A DNA stretch of 10,517 nt. Origin: a virus (Duplodnaviria; Heunggongvirae; Uroviricota; Caudoviricetes). A program made the position numbers and the translations under genes. Below are positions 1 through 10,517 of the stretch, piece after piece (position 1 is the stretch's first letter; each line of letters begins with the position of its first letter). Under the pieces are notes generated by a model. It ran no database searches. It saw only the letters and a list, made by a program, of their open reading frames with translations, and had not been told where the DNA came from. The stretch is from the IMG/VR virus record IMGVR_UViG_2585427755_000006. The stretch is one strand, 5' to 3'.

Positions 1-91
1 TAGACTGGCCCCCTGAATCTCCAGACAACCAATATCACTTAAATAAGTGATAGTCTTAATACTAGTTTTTAGACTAGTCATTGGAGAGCAG

Positions 92-457
92 ATGATTGAT
101 GTCTTAGGACCGGAGAAACGCAGACGGCGTACTACACAGGAAAAGATCGCTATTGTTCAGCAGAGTTTTGAACCGGGAATGACGGTCTCCCTTGTTGCCC
201 GGCAACACGGTGTGGCAGCCAGCCAGTTATTTCTCTGGCGCAAGCAATACCAGGAGGGAAGTCTTACTGCTGTGGCCGCAGGAGAGCAGGTCGTTCCTGC
301 CTCTGAACTTGCTGCTGCCATGAAGCAGATTAAAGAACTCCAGCGCCTGCTCGGCAAAAAAACGATGGAAAATGAACTCCTTAAAGAAGCCGTTGAATAC
401 GGGCGTGCAAAAAAGTGGATAGCGCACGCGCCCTTATTGCCCGGGGATGGGGAGTAA
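92..457 (+). CDS. insC: IS2 transposase OrfA (InsC), 121 aa, HTH DNA-binding
   Basis: ATG at 92 after GGAGAG RBS. Translation [40 protein letters not shown]... matches recalled InsC. The track ORF from 47 is an upstream GTG extension. Confidence 0.9.
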
Positions 458-1320
458 GCTTAGTCAGCCGTTGTCTCCGGGTGTCGCGTGCGCAGTTGCA
501 CGTAATTCTCAGACGAACCGATGACTGGAAAGATGGTCGCCGCAGCCGTCACTCAGATGATACGGATGTGCTTCTCCGTATACACCATGTTATCGGAGAG
601 CTGCCCACGTATGGTTATCGTCGGGTATGGGCGCTGCTTCGCAGACAGGCCGAACTTGATGGTATGCCTGCGATCAATGCCAAACGTGTTTACCGGATCA
701 TGCGCCAGAATGCGCTGTTGCTTGAGCGAAAAACCGCTGTACCGCCATCGAAACGGGCACATACTGGCAAAGTGGCCGTGAAAGAAAGCAATCAACGATG
801 GTGCTCTGACGGGTTCGAGTTCCGCTGTGATAACGGAGAAAAACTGCGAGTCACGTTCGCGCTGGACTGCTGTGACCGTGAGGCACTGCACTGGGCAGTC
901 ACTACGGGCGGCTTCGACAGTGAAACAGTACAGGACGTAATGCTGGGAGCGGTGGAACGCCGCTTCGGCAACGAGCTTCCGGCGTCTCCAGTAGAGTGGC
1001 TGACGGATAATGGTTCATGCTACCGGGCTAATGAAACACGGCAGTTTGCCCGGATGTTGGGGCTTGAACCGAAGAACACGGCGGTGCGGAGTCCGGAGAG
1101 TAACGGCATAGCAGAGAGCTTCGTGAAAACGATAAAGCGTGACTACATCAGTATCATGCCTAAACCAGACGGGTTAACGGCAGCAAAGAACCTTGCAGAG
1201 GCGTTCGAGCATTATAACGAATGGCATCCGCATAGTGCACTGGGTTATCGCTCGCCACGGGAATATCTGCGGCAGCAGGCCAGTAATGGGTTAAGTGATA
1301 ACAGGTGTCTGGAAATATAG
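415..1320 (+). CDS. insD: IS2 transposase OrfB (InsD), 301 aa, DDE catalytic domain; expressed as InsCD fusion by -1 frameshift
   Basis: Translation [23 protein letters not shown]...NRCLEI matches recalled InsD. Overlaps insC in the -1 frame with slippery CAAAAAAG at 408-415. Confidence 0.9.
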
Positions 1321-2693: not shown

Positions 2694-3148
2694 TACGCCT
2701 CCTGCTTGTCGCGCAGCAGCTGGAACTCGCAGCTCTGCGGAATAGTCAGGTGGCAGCCAATATTCATCGCCCAGGCTTCAACCTTACACAGGAAGACATA
2801 CATCTCTCCGGTATCGAGATCGGAGGTATGACGTAATGACTGAATGGTGGTGATTTCACCGGTTACGACATCAACCAGTTCTTTGGTTTCATAACCGAGA
2901 TAAGTGTGTTTGAGAGCATCTTTTACCCAAGCTGGAGTGGCGAACGTTTTACCCCTGCTGATGAGGTATTCACTGATTTCGCTGTACCACATGTGGCTGA
3001 GTGCATTCTGGGAAAGACTGCGTCTCTCGCGCCATGGTTTAAGCACCATGCGAAAGCATTTGCCGTCCTCCAGATAAGGCTGGATCTGCCGACCGATAGA
3101 GGTGAAGTTACCGCGATGCAGTTTGATGCCATCTTGTGGGAAGTTCAC
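2693..3148 (-). CDS. ybcN: YbcN (151 aa), lambdoid nin-region protein
   Basis: Translation [35 protein letters not shown]... matches recalled YbcN. GTG start at 3146-3148 behind a GGAGGTGA Shine-Dalgarno. Confidence 0.85.
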
Positions 3149-3246
3149 GCTTCACCTCCGCAGAGATCAAACGCTGGATGCAAGATATCGCAGGTGCATT
3201 TCTGCATCTGTGAAGGGAGAAGATAGTTTGGATTGTATGTGCGCAT
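3145..3246 (-). CDS. ylcH: Small protein YlcH-like (33 aa)
   Basis: Hand translation [33 protein letters not shown]. Stop overlaps ybcN GTG (GTGA). GGGGA RBS 5 nt upstream of ATG at 3244-3246. Matches the 33-aa ylcH slot upstream of ybcN in K-12. Confidence 0.5.
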
Positions 3247-3342
3247 AAACGTCCCCGTTTAGCGCAGAAGTCACCGGAGTTGTTCAAGCTCCAATGGCAT
3301 GATTATGGCTGGTTGATTATGGGAAATCAAATGTGCTGAAAA

Positions 3343-3849
3343 TTAGTCTGCCAAGTCTTCCTCAGTCACAACTGGGTAATTCCAAATATCAAAAAAAGCT
3401 ATAGCCTCCTGCCATTTGTTCCATAAATTATCAAGTACTTGTGTAGGTTCCGTACTTTTAAAAACAGAATCAGCCGCATCACCGTTATGAACTTCCTCGT
3501 ACAGTTCCATTATTAGCAGATTAACAAAGTACTGTTTCAACATTAATGCCTGATTACCTTCTTTCTGCTGGCTATCCTGCTTGATGATCTCCATCGCCCG
3601 TACCAGGCACCTGATGATATCCGCTGCATCATTAACGCTCCATTCAGATCCGCGCTTATCTGTAGCTGATGTATTGGCTCTCTCAGCGCAAGCCTTTAAA
3701 GACTCATAAAGGTAAACTCTATTTTGTAGCTGCAGCGCTTTTTTTGACGTGTACCAACTTGCAAGCGCCGACCCCGCTGCGGCTAATGTGCCAAACGCAG
3801 AAATGCCTGCTGCTATTGCACTTAAGTCGGCACTGTCAAAGTTCCACAT
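3343..3849 (-). CDS. Hypothetical 168-aa protein with a single predicted N-terminal transmembrane helix (AIAAGISAFGTLAAAGSALASWY) and an acidic C-terminal domain; no recognised family
   Basis: Clean ORF with ATG at 3847-3849 and AAGGTG RBS. Looks lower in GC than the flanking nin genes (by eye). Sits where K-12 DLP12 has ybcL/ybcM. Confidence 0.7.
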   Translation of the reverse strand: MWNFDSADLSAIAAGISAFGTLAAAGSALASWYTSKKALQLQNRVYLYESLKACAERANTSATDKRGSEWSVNDAADIIRCLVRAMEIIKQDSQQKEGNQALMLKQYFVNLLIMELYEEVHNGDAADSVFKSTEPTQVLDNLWNKWQEAIAFFDIWNYPVVTEEDLAD

Positions 3850-4087: not shown

Positions 4088-4411
4088 TTATTGCAACAGA
4101 TTCTGACGGAAATATGGTAACACTCGACTCCACTTATCATCCAGCCACGGCTGGAATTTTACATGTGCCGTTTCTCTGGCGAGGATTGCTCGCGCTCTGG
4201 TGAGTATCTGGGGATATTCTTGCTCGATGGAAGTGAAGCGACCAGCTTCACGATGCTCCGCAACCTGAAGAAGGGGAGTAACGTTCTGGCAGGCGGTTAA
4301 CATCGCATCCCCTGCTCGCCATAACCAGGCGAGTGTGCAAAGTTCGTTATCAGTGAATTGTTTTGTGATTGGGAATTGTTGAACTGCTAGAACGAGAACG
4401 CCAGCATCCAT
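4088..4411 (-). CDS. Hypothetical 107-aa soluble protein; no recognised family
   Basis: ORF MDAGVLVLAVQQFPITKQFTDNELCTLAWLWRAGD... with ATG at 4409-4411 and GGGA RBS. Flanked by its own candidate extended -10 promoter and its own terminator. Confidence 0.65.
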   Translation of the reverse strand: MDAGVLVLAVQQFPITKQFTDNELCTLAWLWRAGDAMLTACQNVTPLLQVAEHREAGRFTSIEQEYPQILTRARAILARETAHVKFQPWLDDKWSRVLPYFRQNLLQ

Positions 4412-4488
4412 TGGCAGTCCCTATAGTAAAACCATAGCTCAGGACGCTTCGTTCAGGATAGATAATTTTATTGTACTTACCTAACTTT

Positions 4489-4500
4489 CTTACTATAGCA
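4489..4500 (-). promoter_or_regulatory. Candidate extended -10 promoter (TGcTATAGT) for the 107-aa gene
   Basis: Minus-strand TGCTATAGT (plus 4492-4500) about 80 bp upstream of the ATG. The -35 is weak, as is common for extended -10 promoters. Confidence 0.3.
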
Positions 4501-4522
4501 CGGTTGAAAAAGTGATTATTAC

Positions 4523-6049
4523 TCAAAAATAAACCTCACCATCAACCATATATTTGAGAGTACTTATCGCCTGCTGGGCGGATATTGTTTTCATTAAAGG
4601 ATAGTGTTTAAAAACAATGCCATTCATAAAATAGATATCACAGGTTTTATTATCTGTATTGATTATGATTTTTTCGAATGTTTTATAGGCAAGTGTACGA
4701 CATAGCTCTCGCCCATTTTTACTGGTTAAGTCAATAGCATGAAAATCACCAAGTGAACTCACCGCTTTACTCTTCAAAGTTTTTAATGATACCGAAGCCC
4801 TTCGTAATTCCTTATCTAATACTCTGATTTTTTCTGCTATAGCGGTAACTTCAGGCGCAACAGATAATGCAGCAATTAAATTATTAATTTTCATCTGGAG
4901 CTCAATAATTTTCAACTCTAAAGTTTCATTAGCATCTTTCTTGTTTTCAACTGGTTGGATTTTGCTACAATTAAAAAGCAACTCATTAATGATATTATAA
5001 TCAACCAAATCTCTCTTTATTGATGGCCTGTCACATCGATGCAGTCTTCTCATCGGACAAACATAATAGCCATGCAAACTTCCAGATACCGCATGAATAA
5101 TCATGGTATTACCACAAGCCTCGCACTTCATAACTGTTCGAAGTAGATTTATCAACATAGGATTTTTGCTACTATTGCTAATACCAAAAGGTGCCAACCG
5201 AATTTCCTGCACAGCGTAAAACAAATCATCTGATATGACTCTGGGATAATAGCCAGCGATTTCACTTATTCCTTTACCTCTTGCACGATATGAAGGTACG
5301 CATATACCTATCAGAGCTTTATTCGCTAATAATTTTTCAATTACAGAAGGCCCCCATGCACTTTCTTTTCCTGAGAAATTTTTTACAGCATGATCATTTA
5401 AATACTTGGCTATTGCATTCAATGAGCGCCTTTCCATCCTGAGTTTAAAAATTAGCTCAATAGTTTTCACCCTGTCGGGGTCTGGAACAAAAGCCGTTCT
5501 TTTGTCATCTAAGGATAGCCATCTAGGACAAGACGCCGTCATAATCGTACCTGATTCCAGTGCATCCTGCCGTTTTTTCTTCCATGATAATTTAACCCGA
5601 CTTGACTTTATCTCGCTTTCTTCATTTGCCCTTTGTGCTATAAGTATGGCTTTTATTAATGAATATGGCTCATTCAAAGAGTCAATATTATAGACTGTAT
5701 TGTCGCAAAGAGTTATAACATCAATACCGTGATTCAAAATCAATTTCAGACGTTCAATCGCTTCACCGACTTTTTCTCTTGAAAGCCTGTCCAGACTTTC
5801 AACTAACAATGTAGTTCCTGGCAATATATAACCATGCTCTATAGCATCTAAAAATTCCGAAAAAGCTCCTGATTGTGCATGCTTTCCTTTGAATGCACTT
5901 AATCCTAAATCTTCATATGTTATGGTATCAAGATAATAATCACTATTTACCTTTAACCATTCAGCAATAAGTCTTCTCTGTCGGTTTAATGAGTCGCCAG
6001 ACATCTGACCTGGTGATGAAAATCGCATATATGCTATGGCTTTTTTCAT
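4523..6049 (-). CDS. ybcK: Large serine recombinase YbcK (508 aa)
   Basis: N-terminal resolvase-type catalytic motif AYMRFSSPGQ, C-terminal cysteine cluster CEACGNTMIIH...YYVCPMRRLHRCD, and a match to recalled K-12 YbcK. AGGTG RBS. AT-rich. Confidence 0.9.
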   Translation of the reverse strand: MKKAIAYMRFSSPGQMSGDSLNRQRRLIAEWLKVNSDYYLDTITYEDLGLSAFKGKHAQSGAFSEFLDAIEHGYILPGTTLLVESLDRLSREKVGEAIERLKLILNHGIDVITLCDNTVYNIDSLNEPYSLIKAILIAQRANEESEIKSSRVKLSWKKKRQDALESGTIMTASCPRWLSLDDKRTAFVPDPDRVKTIELIFKLRMERRSLNAIAKYLNDHAVKNFSGKESAWGPSVIEKLLANKALIGICVPSYRARGKGISEIAGYYPRVISDDLFYAVQEIRLAPFGISNSSKNPMLINLLRTVMKCEACGNTMIIHAVSGSLHGYYVCPMRRLHRCDRPSIKRDLVDYNIINELLFNCSKIQPVENKKDANETLELKIIELQMKINNLIAALSVAPEVTAIAEKIRVLDKELRRASVSLKTLKSKAVSSLGDFHAIDLTSKNGRELCRTLAYKTFEKIIINTDNKTCDIYFMNGIVFKHYPLMKTISAQQAISTLKYMVDGEVYF

Positions 6050-6230
6050 GGTGACACCTGCTAACGTATGTTTTTATAAACCTTAGTGGTGAGATATAAT
6101 TTTTGTTTAATTTTTATTTAAAAAGACAATTAAGGTCACATTATCTTGAATATACAACAATAATCGTATTGCAATTTTCTTACACCATAATCTTGAAAGC
6201 ACAAAAGAATACATAAAAAAAATAAAGACA

Positions 6231-6276
6231 TTAACAAAAAGCATAAAACGAGGCTCATATAAATATAAGAGCCTCC
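6231..6276 (-). terminator. Rho-independent terminator downstream of emrE
   Basis: GAGGCTC (6250-6256) / GAGCCTC (6269-6275) stem with a 12-nt AU loop, followed on the minus strand by GTTTTATGCTTTTTGTT. Confidence 0.4.
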
Positions 6277-6306
6277 ATATTTTAGTCGTTTAGAAACAAA
6301 TTATTT

Positions 6307-6639
6307 TTAATGTGGTGTGCTTCGTGACAATAAATTAATAACCAACACTCCGGCACAAATCAACATCATGCCTATAATGGCTGGCATGTCCAGCCGTTGG
6401 CCGAAAAATCCCCATGACAGTAAGCTAATCAGGACAATACCGACTCCTGACCAGATAGCATAAGCAATCCCTGTAGGAATATAAGCCAGCGTCTGCGCTA
6501 ATAACCAGAATGATGCACAATAACAAATAATTGTACCAACAGATGGCCATAACCGTGTAAAACCTTCTGAAAACTTCATTAAGGTTGTACCAATGACCTC
6601 TGCAAGTATTGCACCACCAAGATAAATATAAGGGTTCAT
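6307..6639 (-). CDS. emrE: SMR-family multidrug efflux transporter EmrE (110 aa, 4 TM helices)
   Basis: Translation MNPYIYLGGAILAEVIGTTLMKFSEGFTRLWPSVG... matches recalled EmrE. The track ORF carries an 18-codon upstream extension. Confidence 0.9.
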   Translation of the reverse strand: MNPYIYLGGAILAEVIGTTLMKFSEGFTRLWPSVGTIICYCASFWLLAQTLAYIPTGIAYAIWSGVGIVLISLLSWGFFGQRLDMPAIIGMMLICAGVLVINLLSRSTPH

Positions 6640-6654
6640 AGCATATTCTTTCCT

Positions 6655-6689
6655 GTTCAAACTGGAGAGAATTGTACTACAGTTTGAAC
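6655..6689. repeat. Perfect 10-bp inverted repeat GTTCAAACTG/CAGTTTGAAC with a 15-nt spacer, between the ren stop and emrE start
   Basis: Read directly from the sequence at 6655-6664 and 6680-6689. Ends about 16 nt before the emrE ATG. No T-tract, so not a terminator. Confidence 0.5.
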
Positions 6690-6706
6690 TCAACTCACCT
6701 GTTTCA

Positions 6707-7795: not shown

Positions 7796-8017
7796 ATGGC
7801 AGACATCATTGATTCAGCATCAGAAATTGAAGAATTACAGCGCAACACAGCAATAAAAATGCGCCGCCTGAACCACCAGGCTATATCTGCCACTCATTGT
7901 TGTGAGTGTGGCGATCCGATAGATGAACGAAGACGCCTGGTCGTTCAGGGTTGTCGGACTTGTGCAAGTTGCCAGGAAGATCTGGAGCTTATCAGTAAAC
8001 AGAGAGGTTCGAAGTGA
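7796..8017 (+). CDS. TraR/DksA-family C4 zinc-finger protein (73 aa), lambda orf73-like
   Basis: CCECGDPIDERRRLVVQGCRTCASCQ gives a C-x2-C...C-x2-C zinc finger after an acidic N-terminal helix, typical of TraR-like RNA polymerase secondary-channel binders. Size and position match lambda orf73. Confidence 0.75.
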   Translation: MADIIDSASEIEELQRNTAIKMRRLNHQAISATHCCECGDPIDERRRLVVQGCRTCASCQEDLELISKQRGSK

Positions 8018-8316
8018 GCGAAATTAACTCTCAGGCACTGCGTGAAGCGGCAGAGCAGGCAATGCATGACGACTGGGGATTTGACGCAGACCTTTTCCAT
8101 GAATTGGTAACACCATCGATTGTGCTGGAACTGCTGGATGAGCGGGAAAGAAACCAGCAATACATCAAACGCCGCGACCAGGAGAACGAGGAAATTGCGC
8201 TAACGGTAGGAAAGCTGCGCGTTGAGCTGGAAGCAGCAAAATCAAAACTCAACGAGCAGCGTGAATATTACGAAGGTGTTATCTCGGATGGAAGTAAGCG
8301 TATTGCTGAACTGTAG
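8014..8316 (+). CDS. Ead/Ea22-like protein (100 aa, coiled-coil C-terminus)
   Basis: GTG start overlapping the upstream stop (GTGA). Translation MSEINSQALREAAEQAMHDDWGFDADLFHELVTPSIVLELLDERERNQQYIKRRDQENEE... matches a recalled Ea22-like family. Confidence 0.55.
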   Translation: MSEINSQALREAAEQAMHDDWGFDADLFHELVTPSIVLELLDERERNQQYIKRRDQENEEIALTVGKLRVELEAAKSKLNEQREYYEGVISDGSKRIAEL

Positions 8317-8566
8317 GCCTAGGTTGAATGTACAAGATTTGCATACGTAAGAGCAAAAGACAAGGGAGAATTGATCAGAGTTATTACCTGCCAACCAACG
8401 GGATATTACGCTTACGTACCATGTAACTAGGAATCCTTGAAGTGGCAGCCTAACTGTGGATACACTGAAATGGCGATTTGGTAACATGTTTCGCACAAGG
8501 CTGTTACTACGCTTAGAGATAATCAGTCATGATTAAATGCTTTGTAAAAAGTAAAAGGAAATTACA

Positions 8567-9181
8567 ATGAAAAAATCAACACTAATTTTAGGGCTTACGT
8601 TAATTGTCTCATCTCAAATACCATCGGCAATGGCAAAAAATGAATCAAAACTTTGGGTTGTTGTTGATCGAACGGAAAGACATACCTGCCCTTCAAGTAA
8701 ATGTGGAGTGGCTGGGAAACTATTTTTCAGGGAAGGCGTAGATTTTCTAGAAAAAAAAGGTGAATGGGTTCGTATAACTGAGCCATATTCAGCCTCATGT
8801 GTGGGAGGGGAAAGCGAATATATTAAAGAAGGTAATAAATCCTGCACAAGAAAAAACGGAATCGTTAATGGCAAGTTTTCAGAATGGGTTAAACTTAGTG
8901 ATCTTAGCAGTGAAAGGCCATCAGATCCTGCTGAAAATGCGAGCAGAAATGATACCTTAATCAAAGGATCTGATGACTACCGTATATACAAAAAAGAGTT
9001 TTCTTCGGCAGCTAGGAAGTTAATAAGTGAAGGTGTCTGCACGGAGAGCGATTTTAAGGAAGTTGGAGGGTGGATGGCATCAAGCAATAAGGGTGAAAAC
9101 ATCTATTTCACATATTGCGGAGGAATGACGTTGTCGAACAGAATATATCTAGACGTTAAAAGTGGAAAGACTTTTAGATAA
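8567..9181 (+). CDS. Secreted/periplasmic hypothetical protein (204 aa) with cleavable signal peptide and an SH3b-like N-terminal region
   Basis: Signal peptide MKKSTLILGLTLIVSSQIPSAMA with AxA cleavage motif. The stretch LWVVVDRTERHTCPSSKCGVAGKLFFREGVDFLEKKGEWVRI resembles a bacterial SH3 fold. Six cysteines. AAGGAAA RBS. Lies in the AT-rich island. Confidence 0.7.
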   Translation: MKKSTLILGLTLIVSSQIPSAMAKNESKLWVVVDRTERHTCPSSKCGVAGKLFFREGVDFLEKKGEWVRITEPYSASCVGGESEYIKEGNKSCTRKNGIVNGKFSEWVKLSDLSSERPSDPAENASRNDTLIKGSDDYRIYKKEFSSAARKLISEGVCTESDFKEVGGWMASSNKGENIYFTYCGGMTLSNRIYLDVKSGKTFR

Positions 9182-9252
9182 TATGATATTACCAATGACA
9201 GCATTAATTTAATGCCTCCATAGAATTATCTCTAGGAAGTAAGTATAAGAAA

Positions 9253-9289
9253 AGTCCGCACAATGAGCTGCTGCGGGCTTTGTGTTATT
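9253..9289 (+). terminator. Candidate rho-independent terminator after the secreted-protein gene
   Basis: AGTCCGCA (9253-9260) / TGCGGGCT (9272-9279) stem with one G-U pair and an 11-nt loop, followed by TTGTGTTATT. Confidence 0.4.
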
Positions 9290-9474: not shown

Positions 9475-9813
9475 ATGACTAAATCAGCAGCAGAGCGCAA
9501 AGCCGATCAGAGAGCCAAGCAAGCATCATCCGGTATGCGTAAGCTGGAGCTTGTACTTGATGCTCAGGAAATTGAAATGCTGGAGCGTAACTGAGCCACG
9601 CGCCGCTTCAGGCGTGCGCCTTACGAGTTTGGTGAGTACATAGCGTTACTGAGCCGCCAGGATGATGCACGTGTGCGCTGGCGTATAAAATCGATTAGCA
9701 GAAAACGTTGCCGTAAGTGCGGCGAGAGAGTTCCTGTTAATTCATGCCCGTGTAATGGTGACTCACAATACTGGGTGACCAAAGGCTGGCACGAAACAAA
9801 ATTAATGATATAA
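9475..9813 (+). pseudogene. 112-codon reading frame interrupted by one in-frame TGA (9592-9594): 39-aa N-terminal part plus 72-aa C-terminal part with a zinc-ribbon motif
   Basis: ATG at 9475 gives MTKSAAERKADQRAKQASSGMRKLELVLDAQEIEMLERN, then TGA, then the same frame continues ATRRFRRAPYEFGEYIALLSRQDDARVRWRIKSISRKRCRKCGERVPVNSCPCNGDSQYWVTKGWHETKLMI*. No ATG in the second part; an internal GTG at 9673 is the only alternative start. Confidence 0.45.
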
Positions 9814-9841: not shown

Positions 9842-10270
9842 ATGAAATTAGACCAGCAATATCTAAAAGATCTACTTATCGCATTCGAAAAAACTTATGG
9901 CCCTGACACGATGCTTAGTGAACTAGAGGATAATGGCTTTAATAGATATGACCAAAATTTTATTTTCCATATGCGATTATTATGTGACTACGAATTAATA
10001 GTTAGGGTTGATGGAAAACCTGGGTTCGGTCATATAATGTCCAACGAGTTAGGGGAAGGTGTTGAATATAGTTGGCTCGAAGTACCACTGAGGTTGACAG
10101 CAAGAGGGCATGATTTTATTGCTGACTTACGTCAAAAGGAGGTCTGGCAAGCTATAAAAACAAACTTTAAGGATGAGGGAATTGGTACTCTTATGAGTGT
10201 TTCAAAATCACTAGCAAAAGGCTTTGCAAGAAAAAAAATAAAAGATATTACAGGAATAGATATTGAATAA
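9842..10270 (+). CDS. Hypothetical 142-aa protein, prophage cargo, no confirmed family
   Basis: ATG at 9842 with GGAGG RBS (cacGGAGGcggcaATG). Clean AT-rich ORF ending 36 bp before the IS911-like terminus. Confidence 0.7.
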   Translation: MKLDQQYLKDLLIAFEKTYGPDTMLSELEDNGFNRYDQNFIFHMRLLCDYELIVRVDGKPGFGHIMSNELGEGVEYSWLEVPLRLTARGHDFIADLRQKEVWQAIKTNFKDEGIGTLMSVSKSLAKGFARKKIKDITGIDIE

Positions 10271-10306
10271 TTCTTAGCATAAAGCAACTACTGCCTTTGG
10301 TGAAAA

Positions 10307-10517
10307 TGAAGTGGTTTACTGAATTTGGCCACCTGAACAGAGGTGATATGCTCACCTCAGAACAACACAGGTGCCATAATGAAAAAAAGAAATTTCAGCG
10401 CAGAGTTTAAACGCGAATCCGCTCAACTGGTCGTTGACCAGAATTACACCGTGGCAGATGCAGCCAGCGCTATGGATGTCGGCCTTTCCACAATGACGCG
10501 ATGGGTGAAACAATTAC
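10307..10517 (+). mobile_element. Left end of an IS3-family insertion sequence closely related to IS911 (partial, runs off the window)
   Basis: Terminus TGAAGTGGTTTACTGAATTTGGCCACC resembles the IS911 left inverted repeat TGAAGTGGTCAACAAAAACTGGCCACC, followed by an IS911-type orfA. Confidence 0.8.
10379..10517 (+). CDS. IS3-family transposase OrfA (IS911 InsN-like), N-terminal 46 codons only
   Basis: Translation [46 protein letters not shown] matches recalled IS911 OrfA apart from a few substitutions. AGGTG RBS. Confidence 0.85.

What the first reader, a model, noticed from the sequence alone, without database searches (positions are those of the whole stretch)
8567..9181. AT-rich gene for a secreted, cysteine-containing SH3b-like protein
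The gene has a clear Sec signal peptide with an AMA cleavage site and no lipobox. The N-terminal region fits a bacterial SH3-type fold and the C-terminal ~70 residues are of unknown type. It is AT-rich and followed by a candidate terminator. Secreted prophage cargo in the position of the lambda ea/b-region often encodes surface-modifying or exclusion functions.
Basis: partly seen in the sequence, partly recalled or inferred. Interest (0 to 1): 0.5.

Follow-up and report, generated by a model that had tools for sequence, protein, structure and literature searches.

The report
Prophage gene for periplasmic SH3b protein
This is a real, well-conserved accessory gene of a decayed lambda-like prophage that encodes an exported protein, made of a cell-wall-binding-type SH3b domain and a second conserved domain that matches no described family; what it does is still unknown.

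Summary
Window 8567-9181 (+) is a 204-aa gene with a good ribosome-binding site. It has a classic Sec signal peptide (MKK, hydrophobic core, AMA|K) and no lipobox cysteine. GC is 38.5%, and a hairpin terminator lies 70 nt past the stop.

AlphaFold gives a confident two-domain model (pLDDT about 96 in the mature part):
- Six invariant cysteines appear or disappear together as three pairs, which fits an oxidising periplasm.

The gene is under purifying selection (dN/dS 0.10-0.17). It occurs in 132 of 5426 complete E. coli genomes, in the live phage Chlobot at the same position (between a DksA-like gene and xis/int), and on a phage-plasmid. Homologues sit in Pseudomonas islands and an Aeromonas prophage. 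The C-terminal domain also occurs alone as small exported proteins.

Every database calls it hypothetical (PHROG 8310), and I found no literature on it. The best reading is a self-contained cargo gene ("moron") whose product is held on peptidoglycan in the periplasm. An exclusion or immunity role is plausible but untested. Interest is moderate to low.

The parts
8425..8566 (+). Conserved non-coding leader that travels with the gene (likely promoter and 5' UTR)
   Evidence: Homology with the E. fergusonii phage-plasmid copy (84% identity) starts at 8425 and ends at the stop codon, 9183. Alignment A3 shows long invariant blocks. The folded leader has z = -2.5.
8437..8466 (+). Candidate sigma-70 promoter: TTGAAG (8437-8442), 18-nt spacer, TACACT (8461-8466)
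   Evidence: This is the only -35/-10 candidate identical in the window, phage Chlobot and the E. fergusonii copy. It is weak (8 of 12 matches) and the consensus scanner did not report it. Inferred, not shown.
8554..8559 (+). Ribosome-binding site AAAGGA, 7 nt before the ATG
   Evidence: Read directly from the sequence. Invariant in alignment A3.
8567..9181 (+). CDS, 204 aa plus stop (RefSeq WP_000749915.1, 'hypothetical protein'; PHROG 8310)
   Evidence: dN/dS is 0.095 and 0.17. 130 of 132 E. coli copies are full length.
8567..8635 (+). Sec (signal peptidase I) signal peptide, residues 1-23, predicted cleavage AMA|K
   Evidence: n/h/c anatomy and the -3/-1 Ala rule. pLDDT is below 50 for residues 1-25. 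15 of 37 relatives carry a lipobox-like Cys motif at the N-terminus instead.
8645..8896 (+). Divergent SH3b domain, residues about 27-110, with two Cys pairs (C41-C46, C78-C93) and an insertion at residues 70-105
8924..9178 (+). C-terminal domain of three helices then three strands, residues about 120-204, motifs SDD[YF] ... C158 ... GGW ... YFTYC184GG ... NRIYL; uncharacterised
9251..9288 (+). Candidate intrinsic terminator: hairpin AAAGUCCGCAGC ... GCUGCGGGCUUU, then GUGUU
   Evidence: centroid -15.3 kcal/mol. A canonical GC hairpin plus T-run sits at the equivalent position in the E. fergusonii copy, although the surrounding sequence has diverged.

Best explanation
The gene is a self-contained, horizontally mobile cargo gene ('moron') in the early-left 'ea' position of a lambda-like prophage.

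Its product is exported by Sec, cleaved after AMA, and folded in the periplasm with three disulfides. It has two domains. I infer that the divergent SH3b domain holds the protein on peptidoglycan, as its nearest structural relatives do. The conserved C-terminal domain, which also exists on its own in other bacteria, would then carry the actual activity. That activity is most probably binding rather than catalysis.

The likeliest benefit is to the lysogen's envelope: shielding or altering the cell wall against incoming lytic enzymes or phages.

Shown by computation:
- a real gene under purifying selection
- an export signal
- the SH3b fold
- an autonomous C-terminal domain with no described relative
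- mobility as a cassette together with its own leader

Inferred: peptidoglycan binding, non-catalytic action, and a protective or exclusion role.
For: Gene reality: dN/dS 0.095 and 0.17. 130 of 132 E. coli copies are intact.

Export: signal-peptide anatomy. Six invariant Cys are lost and gained as three pairs across the family. Relatives place the same module in the periplasm in other ways: 15 of 37 carry a lipobox-like N-terminal Cys motif, and others have a Zn-ribbon plus transmembrane anchor.

Autonomous C-domain: it occurs as stand-alone exported proteins of about 100 aa.

Cassette behaviour:
- GC is below the flanks in every host examined.
- Homology to the phage-plasmid copy covers only 8425-9183.
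- The terminator position is conserved.
- The upstream ea22-like gene is truncated.
- The gene occupies the same position in the live phage Chlobot.
- It is next to integrases in Pseudomonas islands, and in an Aeromonas prophage.
Against: - No ligand or phenotype has been tested.
- This protein itself scores below the Pfam SH3_3 threshold, and its SH3b domain carries a 35-residue Cys-containing insertion that could change specificity.
- Not all SH3b domains bind peptidoglycan.
- There is no match to any known exclusion, defence or inhibitor family.
- There is no conserved partner gene.
- At least one member lies in an apparently core neighbourhood (metX/metW-pheT), so the family is not strictly cargo of mobile elements.
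- The promoter candidate is weak (8 of 12 matches), and the consensus scan found no promoter on the + strand.
Confidence: 0.45

Rival explanations
1. The protein inhibits or gives immunity against a peptidoglycan hydrolase. The C-domain would bind and block a lytic enzyme (a phage tail lysozyme, a type VI secretion amidase or muramidase, or host lysozyme), while SH3b keeps it on the wall. This would give superinfection exclusion or immunity. It is a specific sub-case of the best explanation.
For: The module is small, disulfide-bonded and periplasmic. It is carried by prophages, islands, plasmids and a phage-plasmid. Stand-alone forms with a lipobox-like motif resemble known small exclusion or inhibitor lipoproteins in size and location. 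This analogy rests on general knowledge of T4 Spackle, Ivy, MliC/PliC, Llp and Cor.
Against: No sequence or fold similarity to Ivy, MliC/PliC, Spackle or any PADLOC model. No toxin or effector gene is consistently adjacent.
Confidence: 0.2
2. The C-domain is a small, new catalytic domain that acts on the cell wall and is targeted by SH3b. This is the same architecture as NlpC/P60 enzymes, lysostaphin and endolysins.
For: In the nearest structural relatives SH3b is usually fused to a catalytic domain. S135, D136, S172, Y180 and Y194 are conserved in at least 90% of 62 diverse relatives, and D137 in at least 90% of the closer set, so they could form an active site.
Against: The domain has only about 85 residues, and only two residues (the Cys pair) are strictly invariant across 62 diverse members. 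It resembles no hydrolase fold. A constitutively exported wall hydrolase would be risky cargo for a lysogen.
Confidence: 0.12
3. The SH3b domain binds something other than peptidoglycan (an outer-membrane or periplasmic protein, or a host molecule after release). The protein would then be an adhesion, colonisation or receptor-masking factor.
For: The SH3b domain is atypical: two extra disulfides and a long insertion. Some relatives carry N-terminal ankyrin repeats or coiled coils, which are protein-interaction modules.
Against: Nothing in the sequence indicates a route beyond the periplasm; E. coli would need a dedicated secretion system for that (general knowledge). The anchored relatives all point to a periplasmic site of action.
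Confidence: 0.15
4. The gene is a silent remnant with no function in this defective prophage.
For: The prophage is heavily decayed. IS3 and ISEc52 lie at both ends of the window, and the immunity and replication regions are lost. AT-rich foreign genes in E. coli are often silenced by H-NS (general knowledge).
Against: dN/dS is 0.10-0.17. The reading frame is intact in 130 of 132 genomes. The leader and terminator are conserved. The same gene is present in a live phage.
Confidence: 0.05

Closest known systems
Bacterial SH3 (SH3b; Pfam SH3_3, PF08239) cell-wall-binding domains, e.g. B. anthracis GBAA_2967 SH3b (9ovi), SH3b of NlpC/P60 endopeptidases (3pvq, 3h41), lysostaphin SH3b (6rk4), endolysin binding domains (4krt, 9kz1)
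   Different: This copy is below the Pfam threshold. It carries two extra disulfides and an insertion of about 35 residues. It is not fused to any recognisable catalytic domain. It is a Gram-negative periplasmic protein, not a Gram-positive wall-binding module.
Phage morons and lysogenic-conversion genes for exported proteins (lambda bor and lom; T5 Llp; phi80/N15 Cor; T4 Spackle)
   Same: It is a small exported protein encoded by a phage accessory gene, with its own leader and terminator and a deviant GC content. It is present in only a minority of related prophages.
   Different: It shows no sequence or fold similarity to any of them. It is not a lipoprotein. It lies in the early-left 'ea' position rather than the late operon. 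No phenotype is known.
PHROG 8310 / RefSeq WP_000749915.1 and WP_000748282.1 ('hypothetical protein')
   Same: It is a full-length member (E 7e-135) and is identical to the RefSeq protein in strain ET358.
   Different: These entries carry no function, so membership explains nothing.
MapZ extracellular subdomain 2 (2nda) and cystatin-like domains, including the copper amine oxidase N-terminal domains
   Different: The scores are in the noise range for an 89-residue query, so this is not evidence of homology.

Membership tests
SH3b superfamily (Pfam SH3_3, PF08239) | Sequence match to the family model at or above the gathering score | tested here: inconclusive
   This protein scores 16 bits, E 0.014, against a cut-off of 27. 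However, 58 of 62 homologues match SH3_3, the best at 4e-25, and 21 also match SH3b_T. Membership therefore holds by transitive homology.
SH3b superfamily (Pfam SH3_3, PF08239) | Small beta-barrel SH3-like fold | tested here: met
SH3b superfamily (Pfam SH3_3, PF08239) | Binds a cell-wall ligand (peptidoglycan stem peptide or cross-bridge) | not testable with these tools
   This needs sacculus pull-down or muropeptide binding with purified protein.
Sec-dependent signal peptidase I substrates | Positively charged n-region, hydrophobic h-region, small residues at -3 and -1 | tested here: met
   MKK / STLILGLTLIVSS / QIPSAMA|K. No dedicated predictor was available, and export itself is untested.
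Bacterial lipoproteins | Lipobox L-x-x-C at the end of the signal peptide | tested here: not met
   There is no Cys in residues 1-40. LPAM_1 gives E 0.18 over residues 1-15 only. 15 of 37 relatives do carry a lipobox-like motif.
Phage moron (autonomous accessory transcription unit) | Base composition differs from the neighbouring phage genes | tested here: met
   GC is 0.385 (GC3 0.307) against flanks of 0.46-0.52. GC is below the flanks in all hosts examined.
Phage moron (autonomous accessory transcription unit) | Own terminator | tested here: met
   Hairpin at 9251-9281 plus a T-rich tail. A canonical terminator sits at the same position in the E. fergusonii copy. Function in vivo is not tested.
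Phage moron (autonomous accessory transcription unit) | Own promoter | tested here: inconclusive
   142 bp of leader moves with the gene. It contains a conserved but weak candidate, TTGAAG-18-TACACT. The consensus scan found none on the + strand.
Phage moron (autonomous accessory transcription unit) | Present in some but not all related phages, inserted between conserved genes | tested here: met
   It is in 132 of 5426 E. coli genomes. It lies between a truncated ea22-like gene and xis/int in ET358 and Chlobot.
Known anti-phage defence or exclusion proteins and lysozyme inhibitors (PADLOC models; Ivy, MliC/PliC, Spackle) | Sequence or fold similarity to a described member | tested here: not met

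The most novel reading that the evidence does not exclude
The conserved C-terminal domain (SDD[YF] ... C ... GGW ... YFTYCGG ... NRIYL) may be a previously undescribed periplasmic effector module spread by phages, phage-plasmids and integrative islands. It occurs alone, membrane-anchored, or fused to SH3b. It would act as a new kind of cell-wall-associated exclusion or immunity factor, for example by blocking the peptidoglycan hydrolases of incoming phages or of competitors.
Probability: 0.2. Interest if true: 0.6.

Novelty: new variant of a known kind. Interest (0 to 1): 0.3.

Why it matters
If the inferred role is right, this family would add a wall-tethered periplasmic factor to the short list of envelope proteins by which prophages change their host. 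The family has about 850 clusters at 50% identity and is found mainly in Proteobacteria. It would also give a function to a widespread domain that has no Pfam family or solved structure. As it stands, it is a well-defined target for a simple experiment, not a surprise.

Tried and rejected
1. A profile search of PDB sequences gave E about 1e-6 to de novo designed TIM barrels. I rejected this: each of the four repeated stretches scores only 6-10 bits (per-stretch E-value 5-88), and the total is inflated by the internal repeats of the designed proteins.
2. The single-sequence PDB hit to a C-type lectin (E 1.1) is noise.
3. Foldseek against the PDB found nothing with E at or below 1e-3.
4. NCBIfam, PADLOC and Rfam gave no hits.
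5. I looked for a conserved partner gene across 49 loci. The only recurrent neighbours are the genes of one small Pseudomonas island. PHROGs and PADLOC say nothing useful about them, except for a weak regulator-like hit on the 236-aa protein.
6. DUF2513 follows the gene in E. coli and follows a stand-alone C-domain gene in Marinobacter. That is only two lineages, so I do not count it as a system.
7. Plasmid copies in Enterobacteriaceae are captured prophage fragments, not plasmid functions.
8. Literature searches by accession, PHROG id, phage name and topic found nothing on this protein.
9. I could not read the model coordinates, so disulfide geometry and surface conservation were not checked.
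The AlphaFold database was therefore not searched.

Full report
**Context**

The window is a decayed lambda-like (DLP12-type) prophage of E. coli, read in reverse orientation.
- An IS3 copy lies at 47-1320.
- Next come rusA, ybcO, ninE and ybcN, the serine recombinase ybcK (4523-6049), emrE (6307-6693) and ren.
- Then, on the + strand, come a TraR/DksA-like gene (7796-8017), a truncated ea22-like gene (8014-8316), the target (8567-9181) and a DUF2513 gene (9842-10270).
- The right end, from about 10296, is an IS3-family ISEc52 element.

In strain ET358 and in the live phage Chlobot the same block continues into xis and int. In ET358 it ends beside ybhC. The gene therefore lies in the 'ea' part of the early-left operon, on the same strand as int.

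**Checking the observation**

- The ORF coordinates are exact, and AAAGGA lies 7 nt before the ATG.
- The first 23 residues have the three regions of a Sec signal peptide, with Ala at -3 and -1 (AMA|K). There is no cysteine before residue 41, so there is no lipobox.
- The CDS has 38.5% GC (GC3 30.7%), inside a trough of about 1 kb between flanks of 46-52%.
- A hairpin at 9251-9281 followed by TTTGTGTT folds at about -15 kcal/mol. The consensus scanner missed it because the T-run is weak.
- The diverged E. fergusonii copy has a textbook terminator at the same distance from the stop.
- The gene is under purifying selection: dN/dS is 0.095 against the E. fergusonii copy and 0.17 against Chlobot.

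**Structure**

With a 37-sequence alignment, AlphaFold gives a model with mean pLDDT 89. The mature part is about 96 and the signal peptide is below 50.

Six cysteines are invariant in the close family. Across 62 diverse members they appear and disappear as the pairs 41/46, 78/93 and 158/184. This fits three disulfides and a periplasmic location.

**Family and architecture**

A profile search of 1.84 billion representative proteins finds 847 clusters with E at or below 1e-3, and 148 with E at or below 1e-30. All named members are called hypothetical. The module appears in several forms:
- behind a plain signal peptide, as here;
- behind a lipobox-like N-terminal Cys motif (15 of 37 close relatives);
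- behind a cytoplasmic Zn-ribbon plus a transmembrane anchor;
- behind ankyrin repeats or a coiled-coil region.

One subfamily has one or two canonical SH3_3 domains, without the extra cysteines, in front of the same C-domain. The C-domain also exists alone, as exported or anchored proteins of about 100 aa in Marinobacter, Agrobacterium, Rhizobium and many metagenomes. So the C-domain is the autonomous core of the family and SH3b is an add-on. Every architecture puts the C-domain in the periplasm.

**Mobility**

The gene is in 132 of 5426 complete E. coli genomes, and 130 of those copies are full length. It is also found:
- in phage Chlobot at the same position;
- in prophage fragments captured on large enterobacterial plasmids;
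- on an 88-kb E. fergusonii element whose annotated genes (dut, DNA polymerase III theta, an S24 peptidase, a tyrosine recombinase) suggest a phage-plasmid;
- on a 5.3-kb ColRNAI-type plasmid of Citrobacter braakii, at 63% identity;
- directly downstream of the integrase of a small Pseudomonas island, in 8 loci;
- in an Aeromonas prophage;
- among IS elements;
- once in a core-like metX/metW-pheT neighbourhood.

Its GC is below that of the flanks in every host examined. Homology between the window and the E. fergusonii copy covers only 8425-9183. That is the CDS plus 142 bp of leader. The leader contains the one promoter-like pair conserved in all three enterobacterial copies, TTGAAG-18-TACACT at 8437-8466. 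At 8 of 12 matches it is weak. No partner gene is conserved across taxa.

**Interpretation**

The computations show a real, selected, mobile, independently packaged gene for an exported, disulfide-bonded protein with two domains.

The next steps are inference. The SH3b domain probably tethers the protein to peptidoglycan, because its nearest structural relatives are wall-binding modules. The C-domain probably acts by binding, because it is small and has few invariant polar residues. The benefit would be to the lysogen's envelope.

A specific inhibitor or exclusion role fits the size, location and carriage on mobile elements. It has no direct support, because the protein matches no known defence, exclusion or lysozyme-inhibitor family. 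A catalytic C-domain, or a ligand other than peptidoglycan, cannot be excluded.

**Verdict**

This is an uncharacterised but ordinary-looking prophage cargo protein. Its one unusual feature is a widespread C-terminal domain that has neither a curated family nor a structural relative. I rate it a new variant of a known kind, of moderate to low interest.

Noticed in passing
window 47-1320 and 10296-10517: The prophage remnant is bracketed in the window by an IS3 copy, which cuts into the quuD side, and by the end of an IS3-family ISEc52 element. In related strains the right side instead continues into a 168-nt ORF, xis, int and ybhC.
   Followed up: partly
window 8441-8451 and 8498-8508: The conserved leader contains an 11-bp inverted repeat (AGTGGCAGCCT / AGGCTGTTACT). 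It closes a long stem in the predicted RNA (z = -2.5). In the E. fergusonii copy most pairs are kept through G-U changes and one pair is broken. It could be a leader structure or an operator.
   Followed up: partly
window 9842-10270; L058 5401-5763: A DUF2513 gene follows the target in E. coli, after a pseudogene. A distant DUF2513 gene lies 80 bp downstream of a stand-alone C-domain gene in Marinobacter litoralis. I saw this in two lineages only, so it may be coincidence.
   Followed up: partly
L007 537-6065 (also L002, L003, L006, L008, L009): A small Pseudomonas integrative island has a conserved order: integrase, the SH3b/C-domain gene, then genes for proteins of 236, 105, 130 and 337 aa. 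These have no Pfam or PADLOC hit. The 236-aa protein weakly resembles a phage transcriptional regulator (phrog_129).
   Followed up: partly
L013 (Citrobacter braakii plasmid NZ_CP115736.1, 5310 bp) 2914-3528: A 5.3-kb ColRNAI-type plasmid with four annotated genes carries a 63%-identical homologue. That is an unusual cargo for such a small replicon.
   Followed up: no
P0151, P0166, P0164, P0124 (N-terminal 100-340 residues): Several long family members share a further uncharacterised N-terminal domain with conserved Cys residues. It is followed by a coiled coil, and both lie ahead of the SH3b/C-domain module.
   Followed up: no
window 8014-8316: RefSeq annotates the ea22-like gene as missing its C-terminus. 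The break coincides with the start of the AT-rich tract, as if the cassette had replaced the 3' part of ea22.
   Followed up: partly
window 4350-6700: A second, larger AT-rich block (GC 0.28-0.40) covers ybcK (serine recombinase), ylcJ and emrE. This looks like another foreign insertion in the prophage.
   Followed up: no
window 9475-9813: RefSeq annotates the stretch between the terminator and DUF2513 as a pseudogene with an internal stop. The corresponding intact gene encodes a protein of about 112 aa on plasmid pA18-1 (L015 6909-7247). Phage Chlobot annotates a UmuD-like protein in this interval.
   Followed up: no
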